NCBI GenBank assembly: GCA_019323515.1
Contig: JAHWHG010000003.1
Location: 31,873-95,872 of the forward strand
Origin: Candidatus Woesearchaeota archaeon
GTDB lineage: Archaea > Nanobdellota > Nanobdellia > Woesearchaeales > JAHWHD01
Length of the DNA stretch: 64,000 nt
Reading direction: 5' to 3'
The notes below the pieces were generated by a model. It was given only the letters and a program-made list of their open reading frames with translations. It did no database searches and had not been told where the DNA came from. Below, piece by piece: positions 48,034 through 62,210 of this stretch (the stretch's first letter is position 1; each line of letters starts with the position of its first letter). A program made the translations under genes and the position numbers.

Positions 48034-49710
48034 TTATTCTATTCTCTTTTTAGATGTAAGTATTCCTATTGCAAGCGTTATGATTGCATATAAAGCAAGG
48101 ATTATCACTGGTTTAGCAATCTCTGCTAAAGGTGTTGCTTTTATCATGATTTCTCTTAGAGCTACATTTGAATAGAACATTGGACTTAGATAAGCAACGT
48201 ATTGCATAAATCTTGGCATTACTTCAATTGGTGAGAATGTCTGTGAGATTAGGACTGAAGGTATTACTATAAGCGGAACTAACATCACTGCCTGGCGCAT
48301 GGTTCTTACAAGTGAAGAGATTAATAATCCAAGGCCTATGCTTGCTGCCATTAGCAGAAGTAAAACTAATCCAGCTGCTAGAAGTGATCCAGCTACTTTT
48401 ACCTTGAACAATAAAGTTGCAAGGAGTAATACATAAATAACTTCAATTATGCCAAGTATTAGGAAGACAAGGAACTTTCCACCAAAGAGTTCTATTTTCT
48501 TTAAAGGAGTGGTAGAGACCCTGAAGAGAGTCTTTGTATTTCTTTCGTCAACTATATTGATAGTTGTTAGCATGACACCTATAAAGAAGAGTACTAAAGT
48601 CATAATTGCAGGGGTAAGGTATTCGAAGTATGAAATCTCTCCGAATAGGTACTCTCTTTCAATGTCAAGCGGGTGTGAAAGAAACTCTTTCTTCAGGGTC
48701 TTTAGTTCTAAGTAAATAACATCAATTCTTTCCTGAACTTCATAGTAAGTGTCTTCAAGTTCATGCGCTGTGATGTTTATTTCTTGAGCAATAACCTCAT
48801 TTTCATTTAATTTAACATTAAAATCATCCATGTTATAATACTCATTTGATAAAGGGATTTTTGATAAGGGTTTTAGTCTGTTTACCTCTTCAATTGAGTC
48901 TTCAATCTCTTTTTTTGAGTTTGAGACCTCTTTTAAGATAGGATCAATGTATATAGAAAGATTAGCCTCAATTACTTTTATTTGGTTCAATGCAGTGCTC
49001 AAGTCGTCAAATGTGTCCAGTGATTTTTCCATATCAACTTTGATTGATTCTACATCTGAGTTAAGTTGTTCAGCTTCCCTTCTTGAGCTGTCAAGTTTTG
49101 TTTCGGTATCAGTTATTAAGTCTCTGGTTTCATCAAACTTGTTAGTAAGGTTTGTAACTTTCTCAAGTGTTGTTTGTGAGCTTTCTTCTGCCTTGTCAAT
49201 CAAAGCCTGTATCTCATCAATATTGTCTTGTTTTTTTGAGCGTTCTTCTTCAAGATCATGCACAATGAATTGGATAATCTCGTGAAGTGAATCTTTTATA
49301 ACTCCTGCTGATGCGCCTTTTAAGAAGTTGTAGATTGCATAATCTGAACTATCTAAGTATAAGTGGATGTCTGCTTTTGTTGCGTTGTCAAGTGTTGCCT
49401 GAAAGTCTTCAGGAATCAGGAAGACAGCTCTTACATCACTTTTCCTAAGTAACTCGTTGGCTTCCTCGAGACTTCCTGTAAAAGGAATTCTATTGAAATA
49501 TTCACTATCATCAATTGCATCTATAATTGTTTGAGAGTATAAAGTAAGGTCCTTGTCAATCACTATTGTGTTTAGGTCAGTGATATTAGCTTGGAATGCA
49601 TATCCAAAGACTAACATAAGGATTAGAGGTTCAAGTATCATAGTCAGGATGTATCCTTTATCTCGCATATACTGCTTATACTCTTTTTTTATTACTTTTA
49701 GAATCCTCAT
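48034..49710 (-). CDS. ABC-2 family transporter permease with a large extracellular coiled-coil domain.
   Basis: It has an N-terminal TM, an extracytoplasmic domain of about 300 aa rich in E/K/D, and 5 C-terminal TM helices. Its 5' end overlaps the ATPase gene. Confidence 0.6.
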   Translation of the reverse strand: MRILKVIKKEYKQYMRDKGYILTMILEPLILMLVFGYAFQANITDLNTIVIDKDLTLYSQTIIDAIDDSEYFNRIPFTGSLEEANELLRKSDVRAVFLIPEDFQATLDNATKADIHLYLDSSDYAIYNFLKGASAGVIKDSLHEIIQFIVHDLEEERSKKQDNIDEIQALIDKAEESSQTTLEKVTNLTNKFDETRDLITDTETKLDSSRREAEQLNSDVESIKVDMEKSLDTFDDLSTALNQIKVIEANLSIYIDPILKEVSNSKKEIEDSIEEVNRLKPLSKIPLSNEYYNMDDFNVKLNENEVIAQEINITAHELEDTYYEVQERIDVIYLELKTLKKEFLSHPLDIEREYLFGEISYFEYLTPAIMTLVLFFIGVMLTTINIVDERNTKTLFRVSTTPLKKIELFGGKFLVFLILGIIEVIYVLLLATLLFKVKVAGSLLAAGLVLLLLMAASIGLGLLISSLVRTMRQAVMLVPLIVIPSVLISQTFSPIEVMPRFMQYVAYLSPMFYSNVALREIMIKATPLAEIAKPVIILALYAIITLAIGILTSKKRIE

Positions 49711-50638
49711 TATCCATCACATGTTTTAGAATCGTCCTAAGGTCTGGTTTTACTATGTCAATGTTTTTGACATGGTTCTTTAGATAGTTCAATGAATCCA
49801 TTACTTGCACAATTGTTGTGCCGATGTCTTTGCTTGTGAATGAGAGAGTTGTTCCTCTATGTTTAAGGTTATGAATCTTGAATCCTGATTTCTTGAGGCG
49901 TTTTTCTACCTTTACTGCATCTATGCTTGTCTTAAATTCAATATGAATATCTTCTCCTAGATTTTTTGAGTATTGTTTGACAATGCCTTTAGGTGTTCCT
50001 TCAAGGATTTTCTTGCCTTTATCCATAAAGACAATGTAATCACATACAGATTCTGCTTCTTTTATTGAGTGTGTTGTGAAAATAACTGTCATGTCTTTGA
50101 TAGATCGAATGAATTTCATGATGATTGAGTTAGTGCGCATGTCAATTCCTGTAAGGGGTTCGTCGAGGAAAAGCACTTTTGGTTTGGATACCAAAGCGCA
50201 GGCAATTGAGCATCTTTTCTTATAACCTCCAGAGAGTGTAGCTACAATTTGATCAGCTTTGTCTTTTATTTGGAATATCTTAAGCATCTTGTTGATGCTT
50301 TTCTTTAACTTTTCTTCATCTTCTATGAACATCCCTCCAAAGAATTCAATGTTTTCATAGACTGTCAATTCTTCGTATAATGACATTGCTTGAGGAACAA
50401 GCGCGATGTTCTGTCTTATCTTTTCAATCTCCTTTGCAGTGTTCATGTTCAGGACTTTTATTGAGCCTTTTGTAGGGAGAAGAAGTCCAGTTATCATGTT
50501 TATTGTTGTAGTTTTACCTGCTCCATTTGATCCTAATAATCCAAAAATCTTATTCTTAGGTATAGAGAATGAGAGTTTATCTACAGCTGTGTAATCCCCG
50601 AATTTCTTAGTTATATTTCTAACTATTATTGCGTCCAA
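49676..50638 (-). CDS. ABC transporter ATP-binding protein.
   Basis: Walker A is GLLGSNGAGKTT, the signature is LSGGYKKR and Walker B is LFLDEP. Confidence 0.85.
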   Translation of the reverse strand: MDAIIVRNITKKFGDYTAVDKLSFSIPKNKIFGLLGSNGAGKTTTINMITGLLLPTKGSIKVLNMNTAKEIEKIRQNIALVPQAMSLYEELTVYENIEFFGGMFIEDEEKLKKSINKMLKIFQIKDKADQIVATLSGGYKKRCSIACALVSKPKVLFLDEPLTGIDMRTNSIIMKFIRSIKDMTVIFTTHSIKEAESVCDYIVFMDKGKKILEGTPKGIVKQYSKNLGEDIHIEFKTSIDAVKVEKRLKKSGFKIHNLKHRGTTLSFTSKDIGTTIVQVMDSLNYLKNHVKNIDIVKPDLRTILKHVMDNEDSKSNKKRV

Positions 50639-50726
50639 GTTACCTTACCCCTTTTTAGTATGTTAAATATATGTTTGATTATAAACTTTTTGGAAAATAA
50701 AGGGTTTTTAACATTTAAAAATAGAA

Positions 50727-50931
50727 TGCGGAGGTAGGGACTTTCACAGCTGAGCTGTTCGGTCGTTTGACCTTACGCTCAAACTATTTGAACCCCAGTA
50801 GGCACTAAGCCAACAGATGGCTCACGAGTTCTTCATCAGCATAAGCCTCAGCACTCAACAGTCTTGAGTATGGACTTTTAGTACCTAATGCACTTAAAAA
50901 CTGTCCCGTTTGACCGCTCCGGCACCTCCGC
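50727..50931 (-). tRNA. Candidate intron-containing tRNA, most consistent with tRNA-Leu(UAA) carrying up to three introns. An alternative is another structured ncRNA.
   Basis: It is a 205-nt GC-rich island in AT-rich intergenic DNA. On the minus strand the acceptor pair is GCGGAGG/CCTCCGC plus discriminator A. U8 and G9 are present. The D-arm CCGG-AGCGGTCAAA-CGGG has A14, R15, Y16 and G18G19. The anticodon stem is CAGTT/GACTG. The loop TTTAAG|A is interrupted exactly at 37/38 by a 28-nt insert, giving anticodon TAA with G37. A TGGGG-TTCAAAT T-arm 5' half has its partner CCCTA displaced about 46 nt, abutting the acceptor 3' strand. Confidence 0.5.
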
Positions 50932-51021
50932 AATGAGCTTGGGACATTTTTGTGAATAAGTAGGCTATATATAAATTTAATTGTTGAAGATACTTAGAAT
51001 TAATTTAAATGTAAAAAAAGA

Positions 51022-51462
51022 TTAAACTAGTTTACCTAGTTTGTTTTCAATATTTGCAAGTTCTGCTTCAAGCTTTTCAAGTTCGCTGGTAGCTCTTGGT
51101 TTTGGCATTACCAAGGGTTTTTCAATGACTTGAGCTTTTTTGATTTCTGTTTTTTGTTTATTTGCAGATTTCTTCTTGAGCATATTCACCTTTTCTTTAT
51201 TTGCCTTAATCCTTAATTCAGTTTCTGGAAGCAATTGTTTGAGTTTATTTGCTAGTTTTTTAATCTCAGAGATTATTTCTTTTAGGTTTTGAACTTCATC
51301 AATCTTTTCTTTTCTTACTTCCTTGAAACGTTCATACCTTTGCATGGCATGGACCATCTCTTTTGATGATTCTAAAAGAGTCCTTCGTATCTCTATTGGA
51401 TCCTTTACGCCCACATAAAAAATCTCTTTCTTTGTTTCTTTTTTTGCTGCCAATTCTATCAC
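51022..51462 (-). CDS. Small coiled-coil protein of 146 aa.
   Basis: It is a K/E-rich heptad sequence. It is the third of three consecutive small coiled-coil ORFs. Confidence 0.35.
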   Translation of the reverse strand: MIELAAKKETKKEIFYVGVKDPIEIRRTLLESSKEMVHAMQRYERFKEVRKEKIDEVQNLKEIISEIKKLANKLKQLLPETELRIKANKEKVNMLKKKSANKQKTEIKKAQVIEKPLVMPKPRATSELEKLEAELANIENKLGKLV

Positions 51463-61871: not shown

Positions 61872-62210
61872 GCAGTAGGGAGGTGGTTAACTTACGGTAA
61901 TGTTGTCTTTTTGTTTAAATACAAAAGATGACTCACTGAGGAAAGTCCGCCCACTATAAAAAAAGGCCACTTGTGGGAGCAAGCTCTGGAAACAGAGGGC
62001 AATGTCTCAGAAACGGCACGGTCTTTTGACAATGGAATGATGCTGTGAAGTTCCTGGTGACAGGGATGAGAACCAGCTGACGTCTCAAAAGAATACGTTG
62101 AAACGGTCAACCCTGGCTAGTGCAACTCGTTATGAGGCTTAGTAAAATGTTAACAGGAACCTTCCTTTAATGGGGTTCTACAGAAGGCGGCTTATAGCTT
62201 CCCTACACTT
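61872..62210 (+). ncRNA. rnpB: RNase P RNA.
   Basis: The 5' P4 strand GAGGAAAGTCCGCCC (61938-61952) and 3' P4 strand ACAGAAGGCGGCTTA (62180-62194) are universal P4 consensus. The terminal P1 pairing is GTAGGGAGG/CTTCCCTAC. The region is GC-enriched in AT-rich surroundings. Confidence 0.85.

What the first reader, a model, noticed from the sequence alone, without database searches (positions are those of the whole stretch)
50727..50931. 205-nt GC-rich structured RNA that reads on the minus strand as a multi-intron tRNA-Leu(UAA)
The element stands out by GC content, and the ORF track gives it no gene. Its termini pair as GCGGAGG/CCTCCGC followed by A. On the minus strand, canonical tRNA marks follow the 5' strand: U8, a D-arm CCGG-AGCGGTCAAA-CGGG with A14 and G18G19, and an anticodon stem CAGTT. 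The anticodon loop TTTAAG is interrupted after G37 by 28 nt before A38-GACTG closes the stem. That is exactly the canonical archaeal 37/38 intron position, and it leaves anticodon UAA. Further on, a TGGGG-TTCAAAT T-arm 5' half is present. Its partner CCCTA sits directly before the acceptor 3' strand, about 46 nt away, implying a second, non-canonical intron at about 60/61. Roughly 45 nt of extra sequence in the variable-arm region implies a third. Multi-intron or non-canonical-intron tRNAs are known in some archaea and are routinely missed by default tRNA finders. If real, this may be an essential Leu isoacceptor missing from the annotation.
Basis: seen in the sequence. Interest (0 to 1): 0.7.

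Follow-up and report, generated by a model that had tools for sequence, protein, structure and literature searches.

The report
Hidden three-intron leucine tRNA gene
This 205-base stretch is a leucine tRNA gene of a tiny DPANN archaeon, cut into four pieces by three introns so that standard tRNA finders miss it; its anticodon is CAA, not UAA as first thought, and one intron carries a motif that may guide a chemical mark onto the tRNA.

Summary
Window 50727-50931, minus strand, is a real tRNA gene. It encodes tRNA-Leu(CAA), 84 nt once spliced. Three archaeal bulge-helix-bulge (BHB) introns interrupt it: 30/31 (31 nt), 37/38 (44 nt) and 59/60 (46 nt).

It was wrong on the anticodon and on two intron positions. 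The "UUUAAG" loop lies inside intron 1, and the variable arm is intact.

Evidence:
- ARAGORN calls the spliced product tRNA-Leu(caa).
- Of 17,316 BHB-compatible splice products, this one scores best against a profile of 60 intronless relatives (75.3 bits; next 67.8).
- It is 89% identical, without gaps, to intronless tRNA-Leu(CAA) genes of Pacearchaeota and Nanoarchaeia MAGs.
- Each junction has a perfect 4-bp central helix between 3-nt bulges.
- Relatives share the 30/31 and 37/38 introns. The 30/31 motif covaries strongly.

Multi-intron tRNAs, up to three introns, are known in archaea including DPANN. This is a new member of a known kind.

One extra: intron 2 and related tRNA-Leu introns hold a conserved K-turn resembling box D'/C'. 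By the C/D-box rule it would point at C34 (C39 in the UAG relatives). That is suggestive, not shown.

The parts
50966..50975 (-). TATA-like box TTTATATATA, 34 nt upstream of the mature 5' end. Presumed archaeal promoter.
   Evidence: Read from the sequence. Homologues L133 and L129 have a similar A/T box 23-28 nt upstream. Promoter function is inferred, not tested.
50901..50931 (-). Exon 1, tRNA positions 1-30: acceptor 5' strand, U8, D-arm, G26, A27-G30.
   Evidence: nhmmer hit E = 8e-8 against the profile of 60 intronless tRNA-Leu genes. Boundary set by homology and BHB.
50870..50900 (-). Intron 1, 31 nt, at position 30/31. HBh' motif: central helix G25G26A27C28/GUCC, bulges AG|U and AU|A, inner helix UUUUA/UAAAA.
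   Evidence: The local MFE fold forms the motif unaided. The same intron position occurs in 10 distinct relatives, with covariation: 98% of cells paired against 65% in shuffles, 0/500.
50863..50869 (-). Exon 2, ACUCAAG = positions 31-37. It carries the anticodon C34 A35 A36 and G37.
   Evidence: Identical to the anticodon loop of intronless tRNA-Leu(CAA) relatives (ACAGACUCAAGAUCUGU). Conserved 100% in L133 and L129-L132.
50819..50862 (-). Intron 2, 44 nt, at the canonical 37/38 position. Central helix C32U33C34A35/UGAG, bulges AG|A and CC|A.
   Evidence: Homologous intron in L133 (34 identical positions in an alignment of the 44- and 48-nt introns, about 71%). The outer helix is the anticodon stem, which is complete only after intron 1 is removed.
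50831..50851 (-). K-turn-like motif inside intron 2 (box D'/C'-like): CUGA-GGC-UUAU-GCU-GAU-GA-AG.
   Evidence: Same architecture in 9 tRNA-Leu 37/38 introns. UGA...UGA is invariant and the C-stem is 96% paired with covariation. Found in 11 of 16 long introns against 2.45 expected from shuffles. Protein binding is not tested.
50852..50858 (-). UUGAGUG, directly upstream of the CUGA box. Complementary to exon 2 (U)ACUCAA. The fifth nucleotide upstream of the box pairs with C34.
   Evidence: This hairpin is in the centroid structure of the whole precursor. It ties in score with a site in intron 3 (GCUCAGC), and it can also pair with AGAACUC further down intron 2. Guide function is hypothetical.
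50787..50818 (-). Exon 3, positions 38-59: anticodon stem 3' strand, intact variable arm UGGCUUAGUGCCUAC, T-stem 5' strand, T-loop UUCAAA.
   Evidence: nhmmer hit E = 5e-5. Logan contigs break inside this exon, which is shared with other tRNA-Leu genes.
50741..50786 (-). Intron 3, 46 nt, at 59/60 in the T-loop. hBH(h') motif: outer helix = T-stem (5 bp), central helix U54U55C56A57/UGAA, bulges AA|U and AG|U, structured inner hairpin.
   Evidence: All 133 splice products that ARAGORN accepts lack exactly this segment. None of the fetched relatives has it.
50727..50740 (-). Exon 4, positions 60-73: U60, T-stem 3' strand CCCUA, acceptor 3' strand CCUCCGC, discriminator A73. No encoded CCA.
50717..50721 (-). 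T5 run, 5 nt downstream of the gene. Presumed archaeal terminator.
   Evidence: Read from the sequence. Function is inferred.

Best explanation
The element is a functional gene for tRNA-Leu(CAA) of a Nanoarchaeota-type (Woesearchaeales/Pacearchaeales-like) DPANN archaeon.

Proposed pathway (inferred from the anatomy):
1. A precursor of about 205 nt plus a short leader is transcribed from the minus strand.
2. RNase P and a 3' nuclease trim the ends.
3. The archaeal splicing endonuclease cuts at three bulge-helix-bulge motifs: 30/31, 37/38 and 59/60.
4. An RtcB-type ligase joins the four exons into an 84-nt class II tRNA.
5. CCA is added afterwards.

Intron 1 probably has to be removed first. 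Its central helix uses A27 and C28, and the anticodon stem, which is the outer helix of the intron-2 motif, is whole only after exon 1 and exon 2 are joined.

Shown here: the exon-intron structure, homology of the spliced product, the BHB geometry, and its conservation in relatives. Inferred only: transcription, the enzymes involved, and the order of splicing.
For: 1. Spliced product. The 84-nt product is called tRNA-Leu(caa) by ARAGORN, with a full cloverleaf, A73 and a long variable arm.
2. Unbiased enumeration. All 17,316 distinct products of up to three BHB-compatible introns were scored against a profile of 60 intronless relatives. Introns 32-62, 70-113 and 146-191 (RNA numbering) give the top score: 75.3 bits, model 1-84 end to end with no indel. 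The runner-up scores 67.8 bits.
3. Identity. The product is 89% identical, without gaps, to intronless tRNA-Leu(CAA) of L096 and L081. The anticodon arm ACAGACUCAAGAUCUGU is identical in L081, and differences lie mainly in the acceptor and T stems.
4. BHB geometry. All three central helices are four Watson-Crick pairs between 3-nt bulges, with cuts after the second bulge nucleotide: GGAC/GUCC, CUCA/UGAG, UUCA/UGAA. This register matches the published definition, in which the first two anticodon nucleotides lie in the central helix (PMC4090602). From homology alone, the boundaries of introns 2 and 3 can each slide by one nucleotide. My estimate for three perfect Watson-Crick helices by chance is therefore about (1/256)^3 x 4, or roughly 2e-7.
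5. Homologues. Metagenome relatives L133 and L129-L132 carry tRNA-Leu(CAA) with the same 30/31 and 37/38 introns and the same exon 2.
6. Covariation. The 30/31 HBh' motif covaries across 11 genes: 98% paired, 7 of 9 pairs with changes on both sides, 0/500 shuffles reach this, and sliding the register drops pairing to 26-50%.
7. Precedent. 59/60 introns and a maximum of three introns per gene are documented in archaea, including DPANN ARMAN-2 (PMC3239211; PMC4033280).
8. Expression signals. A TATA-like box lies upstream and a T5 run downstream.
Against: - There are no expression or splicing data.
- No endonuclease, ligase or other splicing gene lies in the window, so the enzyme type is unknown.
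- Intron 3 is unique to this organism among the roughly 110 relatives fetched, so it has no comparative support.
- The inner helix of intron 3 is offset by one nucleotide. The inner helix of intron 2 is not adjacent to the 5' bulge, so that motif is relaxed.
- The structure with all three BHB cores enforced is 11 kcal/mol above the MFE (-65.9 against -77.3).
- BHB-like 4-bp/3-nt arrangements are common by chance: 228 to 236 in this RNA, depending on the intron length cap. BHB alone proves nothing. The weight rests on BHB combined with homology.
- The rest of the genome is not available, so an intact second copy cannot be excluded. If one exists, this copy could be decaying.
Confidence: 0.9

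Rival explanations
1. One reading: tRNA-Leu(UAA), with a 28-nt intron at 37/38 after UUUAAG, a second intron of about 45 nt in the variable arm, and a third at about 60/61.
For: Removing RNA positions 40-67, 74-119 (or 75-120) and 146-191 gives an 85-nt product that ARAGORN calls tRNA-Leu(taa). It scores 66.0 bits against the profile.
Against: - It scores 9 bits below the CAA product and needs a 1-nt insertion relative to all 60 relatives (85 nt against 84).
- Neither anticodon-region junction appears among the BHB-compatible candidates. By hand, U32 would face U and A would face G in the central helices.
- The variable arm is intact. Its supposed 'extra' sequence is intron 2.
- The UUUUUAAG string is not conserved in the closest homologue L133, which reads UUCAUUUAG at that place, whereas ACUCAAG is conserved.
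- In the CAA model the UUUU run is the inner helix of the intron-1 BHB, pairing with AAAA.
Confidence: 0.03
2. A decaying tRNA-Leu pseudogene, disrupted by three insertions and no longer processed into a working tRNA.
For: There is no expression evidence. Intron 3 has no counterpart in relatives. Standard detectors reject the locus.
Against: - All stems of the spliced product are intact, and the conserved tertiary nucleotides are present.
- Each of the three insertions sits in a perfect 4-bp/3-nt BHB frame. Random insertions would not do this.
- Introns 1 and 2 are shared with L133, and their structural elements are preserved despite about 25-30% sequence divergence.
- The locus is identical in assemblies from three samples, as far as those contigs reach (exon 4, intron 3 and 29 nt of exon 3).
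Confidence: 0.05
3. Another structured non-coding RNA (SRP RNA, an sRNA or a riboswitch) on either strand, with the tRNA-like ends being a coincidence.
For: The element is GC-rich, intergenic and strongly folding.
Against: - No Rfam family matches on either strand, even at E <= 10. The only hits were a miRNA model and a fungal sRNA model at E = 4 and 8.
- The plus strand folds no better than many of its shuffles (z = -1.9, 10 of 200 fold as well).
- Two collinear, significant profile hits to tRNA-Leu fall on the minus strand.
Confidence: 0.01

Closest known systems
[quoted passage not shown]
   Same: Protein-spliced BHB, hBH or HBh' introns. One canonical and two non-canonical positions. Three introns is the documented maximum (PMC4033280, PMC3239211). 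A BHB that is complete only after another intron is removed.
   Different: The host is an AT-rich DPANN (Nanoarchaeota-type) archaeon, not a hyperthermophilic crenarchaeon. The introns are long (31, 44 and 46 nt), against a typical median of 12-25 nt (PMC4090602). No similar intron copies were found elsewhere in the window or the loci, so there is no sign of the intron transposition described for Thermoproteales.
Disrupted tRNA genes of DPANN archaea: ARMAN-2 pre-tRNA-Cys (59/60) and pre-tRNA-Pro (53/54 and 59/60), and the predicted sets for Pacearchaeota and Woesearchaeota
   Same: Same superphylum. The same 59/60 T-loop position, shown to be cleaved in vitro in ARMAN-2 (PMC3239211). Incomplete tRNA sets in DPANN MAGs have been attributed to undetected disrupted genes (PMC5829648).
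   Different: This specific gene, tRNA-Leu(CAA) with 30/31 + 37/38 + 59/60, was not found in the papers I read. The endonuclease type of this organism is unknown; ARMAN-2 uses an epsilon2 enzyme, and other DPANN use alpha4 with an L3 loop (PMC5829648).
Box C/D guide RNA nested in the tRNA-Trp(CCA) intron of Euryarchaeota (Haloferax volcanii; Pyrococcus sR50)
   Same: A K-turn-forming box motif inside a 37/38 intron. Antisense to the tRNA's own anticodon region. The predicted targets are positions 34 and 39, the two sites methylated in tRNA-Trp. The guide pairing excludes the BHB.
   Different: There is only one K-turn (D'/C'-like), with no terminal C and D boxes. The duplexes are 5-7 bp, not 10-12. 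The boxes are degenerate in relatives (AUGA or GUGA; UAUGA or UGUGA). The tRNA is Leu, not Trp. Each intron family has one predicted target rather than two. No Rfam C/D family matches.
[quoted passage not shown]
   Same: Same target nucleotide (C34) in the same isoacceptor (PMC7994747).
   Different: Those are free-standing complete C/D sRNAs. Here the candidate guide sits in the tRNA's own intron and is a half-unit at most.

Membership tests
Archaeal class II tRNA-Leu | Cloverleaf with a 7-bp acceptor stem, D-arm with G18G19, 5-bp anticodon stem with a 7-nt loop (U33, purine 37), and T-arm with a UUCRAAU loop. | tested here: met
   ARAGORN on the spliced 84-mer gives a full cloverleaf. The profile alignment covers 1-84 of 84 with no indel.
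Archaeal class II tRNA-Leu | Long variable arm and discriminator A73, the Leu identity elements in archaea. | tested here: met
   The variable arm UGGCUUAGUGCCUAC is identical to relatives, and A73 is at 50727.
Archaeal class II tRNA-Leu | A leucine anticodon. | tested here: met
   The anticodon is CAA, in the loop CUCAAGA with G37. The anticodon arm is identical to that of intronless tRNA-Leu(CAA) genes such as L081.
Archaeal class II tRNA-Leu | Expressed, spliced and aminoacylated with leucine. | not testable with these tools
   No RNA-seq or biochemistry is available.
Archaeal BHB (protein-spliced) tRNA intron | A 4-bp central helix flanked by two 3-nt bulges on opposite strands, with cuts at symmetric positions in the bulges. 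| tested here: met
   All three introns meet this: GGAC/GUCC, CUCA/UGAG and UUCA/UGAA, each with 3-nt bulges. The register agrees with PMC4090602.
Archaeal BHB (protein-spliced) tRNA intron | At least one flanking helix (h or h'), giving hBHBh', hBH or HBh'. | tested here: met
   Intron 1: h' of 5 bp. Intron 3: h is the 5-bp T-stem, and h' is offset by 1 nt. Intron 2: h is the 5-bp anticodon stem, but only after intron 1 is removed.
Archaeal BHB (protein-spliced) tRNA intron | The motif is conserved, with compensatory changes, in homologous introns. | tested here: met
   30/31 motif: 98% paired, 7 of 9 pairs change on both sides, 0/500 shuffles. 37/38 central helix: 3-4 of 4 pairs in 22 of 24 relatives' genes. 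Intron 3 has no homologue, so it is untested.
Archaeal BHB (protein-spliced) tRNA intron | Cleaved by the splicing endonuclease (EndA) and ligated by RtcB. | not testable with these tools
   Neither gene family is in the 64-kb window. No enzyme assay is possible.
Archaeal box C/D guide RNA | A K-turn: canonical stem, 3-nt bulge, tandem G.A pairs formed by a UGA of box C/C' and the GA of box D/D'. | tested here: met
   CUGA-GGC...GCU-GAU-GA in the window. The same layout occurs in 9 introns, with invariant UGA/UGA and a covarying stem. This is met at the sequence level only.
Archaeal box C/D guide RNA | Both a terminal C/D pair and an internal C'/D' pair, with spacers of about 12 nt. | tested here: not met
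   Only one box pair is present. No RUGAUGA lies upstream of the guide and no CUGA lies downstream of the second spacer (read from the intron sequence). A separate regular-expression scan found no complete C/D sRNA anywhere in the window.
Archaeal box C/D guide RNA | A guide of at least about 8-10 nt, complementary to the target, with the target nucleotide opposite the fifth nucleotide upstream of box D/D'. | tested here: inconclusive
   The register points to C34 in 4 CAA introns and to C39 in 5 UAG introns. The duplexes are only 5-7 bp, except 10 bp in L104.
Archaeal box C/D guide RNA | Binds L7Ae, Nop5 and fibrillarin, and the target is 2'-O-methylated. | not testable with these tools
   These proteins are not encoded in the window. 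Fibrillarin and Nop5 are listed among near-universal archaeal marker genes (PMC9258230).
Rfam families (SRP RNA, tRNA, others) | A covariance-model match at or near the gathering score. | tested here: not met
   There is no match to the unspliced locus on either strand. The tRNA model also misses the two-intron relatives L133 and L086 and the single-intron L107.

The most novel reading that the evidence does not exclude
The 37/38 intron is more than a spacer. It may be a minimal, single-K-turn box C/D-like guide that recruits L7Ae, Nop5 and fibrillarin to 2'-O-methylate the wobble nucleotide C34 of its own tRNA-Leu(CAA). It could act in cis before splicing, or in trans after excision and circularisation.

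Sister introns in tRNA-Leu(UAG) of related Nanoarchaeota would target C39 in the same way. That would extend the only known case of an intron-encoded tRNA modification guide (tRNA-Trp of Euryarchaeota) to a second tRNA, a second superphylum, and a stripped-down half-unit architecture.

A weaker version is also possible: the K-turn only binds L7Ae, which helps fold the long intron so that the BHB forms.
Probability: 0.3. Interest if true: 0.65.

Novelty: new member of a known kind. Interest (0 to 1): 0.42.

Why it matters
Practical:
- Standard tools miss this gene. ARAGORN and the Rfam tRNA model find nothing here.
- On two-intron relatives, ARAGORN's intron mode calls the wrong isotype, such as Gly or Val.
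- Genome annotations of Woesearchaeales/Pacearchaeales-type DPANN archaea will therefore look as if they lack the UUG decoder, or will carry wrong tRNA calls. Published work already suspected hidden disrupted tRNAs in these lineages (PMC5829648).

Biological:
- It shows that an AT-rich DPANN lineage reaches the archaeal maximum of three introns in one tRNA gene.
- Two of the introns are older and shared with relatives. The T-loop intron is a recent gain.
- The layout implies that the introns must be removed in order.
- If the K-turn and antisense element in the 37/38 intron is a working methylation guide, it would be only the second intron-encoded tRNA modification guide known.

Tried and rejected
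1. ARAGORN on the unspliced region, with intron options and lowered thresholds: nothing.
2. Rfam at the gathering score and at E <= 10 on both strands: nothing relevant.
3. ARAGORN as the judge of splice products: too lenient. It was replaced by profile scoring against intronless relatives.
4. BHB geometry alone: too common by chance, with 228-236 candidates in 205 nt.
5. Automatic BHB-plus-profile parsing of all relatives: noisy for genes with relaxed motifs. Key genes were parsed by hand and each was checked with ARAGORN.
6. Looking for the same locus in other assemblies. Contigs holding the neighbouring ABC genes all end inside exon 3, and the 146-aa neighbour is not on record.
7. Introns as mobile or repeated elements: no other copy in the window or in 133 loci.
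8. Similarity of intron 3 to the D-arm: only a shared 9-mer.
9. K-turns in introns 1 and 3: none seen by eye.
10. A full C/D sRNA in the window by regular expression: none.
11. Splicing or methylation enzymes in the window: none.
12. Literature on tRNA-Leu intron guides or K-turns in DPANN: nothing found in the held library.
Full report
**What is at the coordinates**

Window 50727-50931 is a 205-nt intergenic island. Its GC is 49.8%, against 34.6% for the window. It lies between an ABC-transporter ATPase gene (49676-50638, minus strand) and a 146-aa ORF of unknown function (51022-51462, minus strand).

The window is archaeal. It holds an archaeal RNase P RNA and genes for PCNA, RadA, RPA-like and NAC proteins.

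The minus strand folds far better than its shuffles (z = -4.0). The plus strand does not stand out (z = -1.9).

ARAGORN finds no tRNA anywhere in the 64 kb. It also finds none in this region with intron options and lowered thresholds. Rfam finds nothing here on either strand, even at E <= 10.

**Bringing in relatives**

I scanned the GTDB species genomes for the D-arm string CCGGAGCGGTCAAACGGG. This returned 120 loci, mostly tRNA-Leu genes of Woesearchaeota, Pacearchaeota and Nanoarchaeota MAGs.

The intronless genes fix the numbering for this family. The D-stem is C10-G25, C11-G24, G12-C23. Position 26 is G. The anticodon stem starts with the A after GGG. The variable arm is UGGCUUAGUGCCUAC. 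An example is ...GGG-ACAGA-CUCAAGA-UCUGU-UGGCUUAGUGCCUAC... in L014, L081 and L089.

In the window, that variable arm is intact and is directly preceded by AUCUGU. There is therefore no intron in the variable arm.

**The exon-intron structure**

Read against the family, the gene is as follows (RNA numbering from the 5' end; window coordinates in brackets):

| Segment | RNA positions | Window | Length | Content |
|---|---|---|---|---|
| Exon 1 | 1-31 | 50931-50901 | 31 | tRNA 1-30 |
| Intron 1 | 32-62 | 50900-50870 | 31 | at 30/31 |
| Exon 2 | 63-69 | 50869-50863 | 7 | ACUCAAG, tRNA 31-37 |
| Intron 2 | 70-113 | 50862-50819 | 44 | at 37/38 |
| Exon 3 | 114-145 | 50818-50787 | 32 | tRNA 38-59 |
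| Intron 3 | 146-191 | 50786-50741 | 46 | at 59/60 |
| Exon 4 | 192-205 | 50740-50727 | 14 | tRNA 60-73 |

ARAGORN calls the spliced 84-mer tRNA-Leu(caa) with a complete cloverleaf.

**Is this the right parse? An unbiased test**

BHB-like arrangements are frequent by chance: 228 to 236 in this RNA, depending on the intron length cap. ARAGORN is also lenient. It accepted 133 different spliced products with many different anticodons. All 133 lacked exactly segment 146-191, which makes intron 3 robust.

To settle the anticodon region I built a profile HMM from 60 intronless relatives. I then scored all 17,316 distinct products obtainable with up to three BHB-compatible introns.
- The parse above came first, at 75.3 bits. 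It matches the model end to end with no indel.
- The next product scored 67.8 bits. It differs only in intron 3.
- The same profile, run on the whole window, hits only exon 1 (E = 8e-8) and exon 3 (E = 5e-5). The hits are collinear on the minus strand.
- The spliced product is 89% identical, without gaps, to intronless tRNA-Leu(CAA) genes L096 and L081. The anticodon arm is identical in L081, and differences lie mainly in the acceptor and T stems.

**The splice motifs**

The published definition is a 4-bp helix between two 3-nt bulges. At 37/38, the first two anticodon nucleotides lie in that helix (PMC4090602). Using it, all three junctions have four Watson-Crick pairs in the central helix:

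| Intron | Central helix | Bulges |
|---|---|---|
| 1 | G25 G26 A27 C28 / GUCC | AG\|U and AU\|A |
| 2 | C32 U33 C34 A35 / UGAG | AG\|A and CC\|A |
| 3 | U54 U55 C56 A57 / UGAA | AA\|U and AG\|U |

- Intron 1 has a 5-bp inner helix (UUUUA/UAAAA). Its local minimum-energy fold forms the motif unaided.
- Intron 3 uses the T-stem as its outer helix and has a structured inner hairpin, offset by one nucleotide.
- Intron 2 uses the anticodon stem as its outer helix. That stem is complete only when exon 1 and exon 2 are joined. A27 and C28 are also engaged in the central helix of intron 1. I therefore infer that intron 1 is removed first. This is an inference, not a result.

From homology alone, the boundaries of introns 2 and 3 can each slide by one nucleotide. 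By my estimate, three perfect central helices at these places have a chance probability of roughly 2e-7.

**Relatives with the same introns**

A metagenome scan for exon 1, a gap, GUCCNN and exon 2 found five contigs.
- L133 is the closest homologue. It is tRNA-Leu(CAA) with a 29-nt intron at 30/31 and a 48-nt intron at 37/38, but no T-loop intron.
- L129-L132 have a 22- or 24-nt intron plus a 14-nt intron at the same two positions.
- The window and L133 share 87% of exon positions and about 71-74% of intron positions, with indels. Introns 1 and 2 are therefore inherited, and intron 3 is a recent gain.

Thirteen genes in all carry a 30/31 intron: CAA, UAG and AAG isoacceptors, in the window and 12 relatives. 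ARAGORN calls each an 84-nt tRNA-Leu once it is spliced by hand.

On an alignment of 11 distinct junction constructs, the central and inner helices are paired in 98% of cells, against 65% in shuffles. Seven of nine pairs change on both sides. No shuffle out of 500 reaches the observed values. Sliding the register drops pairing to 26-50%.

The 37/38 central helix has 3-4 of 4 pairs in 22 of the 24 relatives' genes that could be parsed, and it is perfect in the window.

Removing 40-67, 74-119 and 146-191 gives an 85-nt product that ARAGORN does call tRNA-Leu(taa). Four things count against it:
- It scores 66.0 bits, against 75.3.
- It needs a one-nucleotide insertion relative to every relative.
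- Neither of its two anticodon-region junctions has a BHB.
- Its "anticodon loop" is not conserved in L133, which reads UUCAUUUAG there.

In the supported model, the UUUU run is the inner helix of the intron-1 motif.

It was wrong about the anticodon and the other two positions.

**How it compares with what is known**

- Archaeal tRNA genes carry one to a maximum of three introns (PMC3239211; PMC4033280).
- 59/60 introns are documented in DPANN ARMAN-2, and one of them has been cleaved in vitro.
- Disrupted tRNAs have been predicted for Pacearchaeota and Woesearchaeota. Incomplete tRNA sets there were attributed to disrupted genes not yet identified (PMC5829648).

This gene is therefore a new member of a known kind, at the known upper limit of introns.

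Its practical weight lies in annotation:
- The Rfam tRNA model finds the single-intron relatives L041 and L104. It misses L107, L133 and L086.
- ARAGORN's intron mode calls two-intron relatives as tRNA-Gly(ccc), tRNA-Val(gac) or tRNA-Val(tac), by swallowing exon 2 into one long "intron".

**An extra feature in intron 2**

Intron 2 contains CUGA-GGC-UUAU-GCU-GAU-GA-AG (50851-50831). It reads as a K-turn: a GA directly before a short hairpin stem, then after the stem a 3-nt bulge ending in U, then a second GA. This is the arrangement of box D' (CUGA) and box C' (UGAUGA) in archaeal C/D RNAs. That comparison rests on established knowledge of K-turns and C/D boxes.

The same layout occurs in the long 37/38 introns of nine tRNA-Leu genes:
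- CAA isoacceptors: the window, L133, L104, L041.
- UAG isoacceptors: L107, L086, L098, L123, L025.

In these nine, both UGA elements are invariant. The stem is 96% paired and covaries. A simple pattern for the motif is found in 11 of 16 introns of at least 30 nt, against 2.45 expected from shuffles.

Directly upstream of the D'-like box lies a short antisense stretch. I applied the C/D rule, under which the target nucleotide pairs with the fifth nucleotide upstream of box D/D'. The best or joint-best pairing then puts C34 opposite that nucleotide in all four CAA introns, and C39 in all five UAG introns. The UAG family shows two compensatory changes in this pairing, which I read by hand from the sequences.

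Positions 34 and 39 are exactly the two sites guided by the C/D RNA nested in the tRNA-Trp intron of Haloferax (PMC4090602). Pyrococcus has a free-standing C/D sRNA aimed at C34 of tRNA-Leu(CAA) (PMC7994747).

Against a working guide:
- There is only one box pair.
- The boxes are degenerate in relatives.
- The duplexes are 5-7 bp in all but one intron.
- In the window and L133 the same stretch can pair within the intron instead. In the window it also ties in score with a site in intron 3.
- No Rfam C/D family matches.
- No L7Ae, Nop5 or fibrillarin gene lies in the window.

I rate a real L7Ae-binding K-turn as likely and a methylation guide as possible, about 0.3.

**What was not possible**

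No expression data, no complete genome and no enzyme genes were available. Transcription, the enzymes, the order of intron removal and any modification therefore remain inferences.

**Verdict**

This is a genuine three-intron tRNA-Leu(CAA) gene (confidence 0.9). The gene is a new member of a known kind, of moderate interest. The side hypothesis about an intron-borne guide is testable and worth a follow-up.

Noticed in passing
window 61875-62206 (+): Archaeal RNase P RNA (RF00373, 149 bits, E = 4e-42), with large insertions relative to the model. It is the only Rfam hit in the window.
   Followed up: no
L001 (end 14031), L002, L127, L128; window about 50815: Logan contigs from three samples carry the neighbouring ABC-transporter genes. 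All of them stop about 29 nt into exon 3 of the tRNA gene. That stretch (variable arm plus T-arm) is identical in other tRNA-Leu genes such as L098 and L107, so assemblies appear to break at this paralogous repeat.
   Followed up: partly
L133 c[572,734]; L123 [6622,6789]; L098 c[1122,1288]; L086 c[5429,5583]; L025 c[1332,1485]: ARAGORN with intron search mis-calls two-intron tRNA-Leu genes as tRNA-Gly(ccc), tRNA-Val(gac), tRNA-Val(tac) or Leu(caa), each with one long intron. The Rfam tRNA model misses L133, L086 and L107. This is a systematic annotation error in these lineages.
   Followed up: partly
L011, L021, L041, L069 (tRNA-Leu(CAA) genes with a 37/38 intron): The intron strand of the central BHB helix is UAAG. 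It would pair perfectly with a CUUA loop (U34) but leaves a C34.A mismatch with CUCA. This hints that these CAA genes arose from UAA or UAG genes by a change at position 34 after the intron was acquired.
   Followed up: no
L107, L086, L098, L123, L025 (37/38 introns of tRNA-Leu(UAG)): A conserved helix GGUGU/ACACC spans the 3' splice site. It pairs intron nucleotides just upstream of the AUGA box with the last two intron nucleotides plus A38-C40 (to position 41 in four of the five), and shows two compensatory changes. It is incompatible with the BHB and puts C39 at the C/D-rule target position.
   Followed up: partly
window 50763-50771 (intron 3) and 50908-50916 (exon 1): The 9-mer GGUCAAACG of the D-loop region is repeated inside intron 3. 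Only 17 of 2000 shuffles reach the alignment score. This may be chance, or a trace of the intron's origin.
   Followed up: partly
window 50878-50887 and 50799-50808: A 10-bp complementarity (one G.U) links the loop region of intron 1 (UAGGUACUAA) and the variable arm (UUAGUGCCUA). By my rough estimate, about one helix of this length is expected by chance in a 205-nt RNA.
   Followed up: no
window, ORFs across 1-64000: The window encodes several RNA- or DNA-handling proteins: a THUMP + UPF0020 methyltransferase (tRNA m2G-type architecture), a LigT-like 2'-5' RNA ligase/phosphoesterase, RNase J, two RadA paralogues, PCNA and DNA gyrase A. It encodes no EndA, RtcB, L7Ae, fibrillarin or Nop5. About a third of the ORFs (for example 16 or more of the 21 between 4971 and 22139) have no Pfam match.
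   Followed up: partly
L053 4488-4656 and L081 5939-6138: Relatives carry a tRNA-Met(CAU) gene with a 93-nt intron and a putative tRNA-Asn(GUU) gene with a 126-nt intron. These are ARAGORN calls. Both introns are unusually long, and neither was examined for multiple introns or guide motifs beyond a glance.
   Followed up: no
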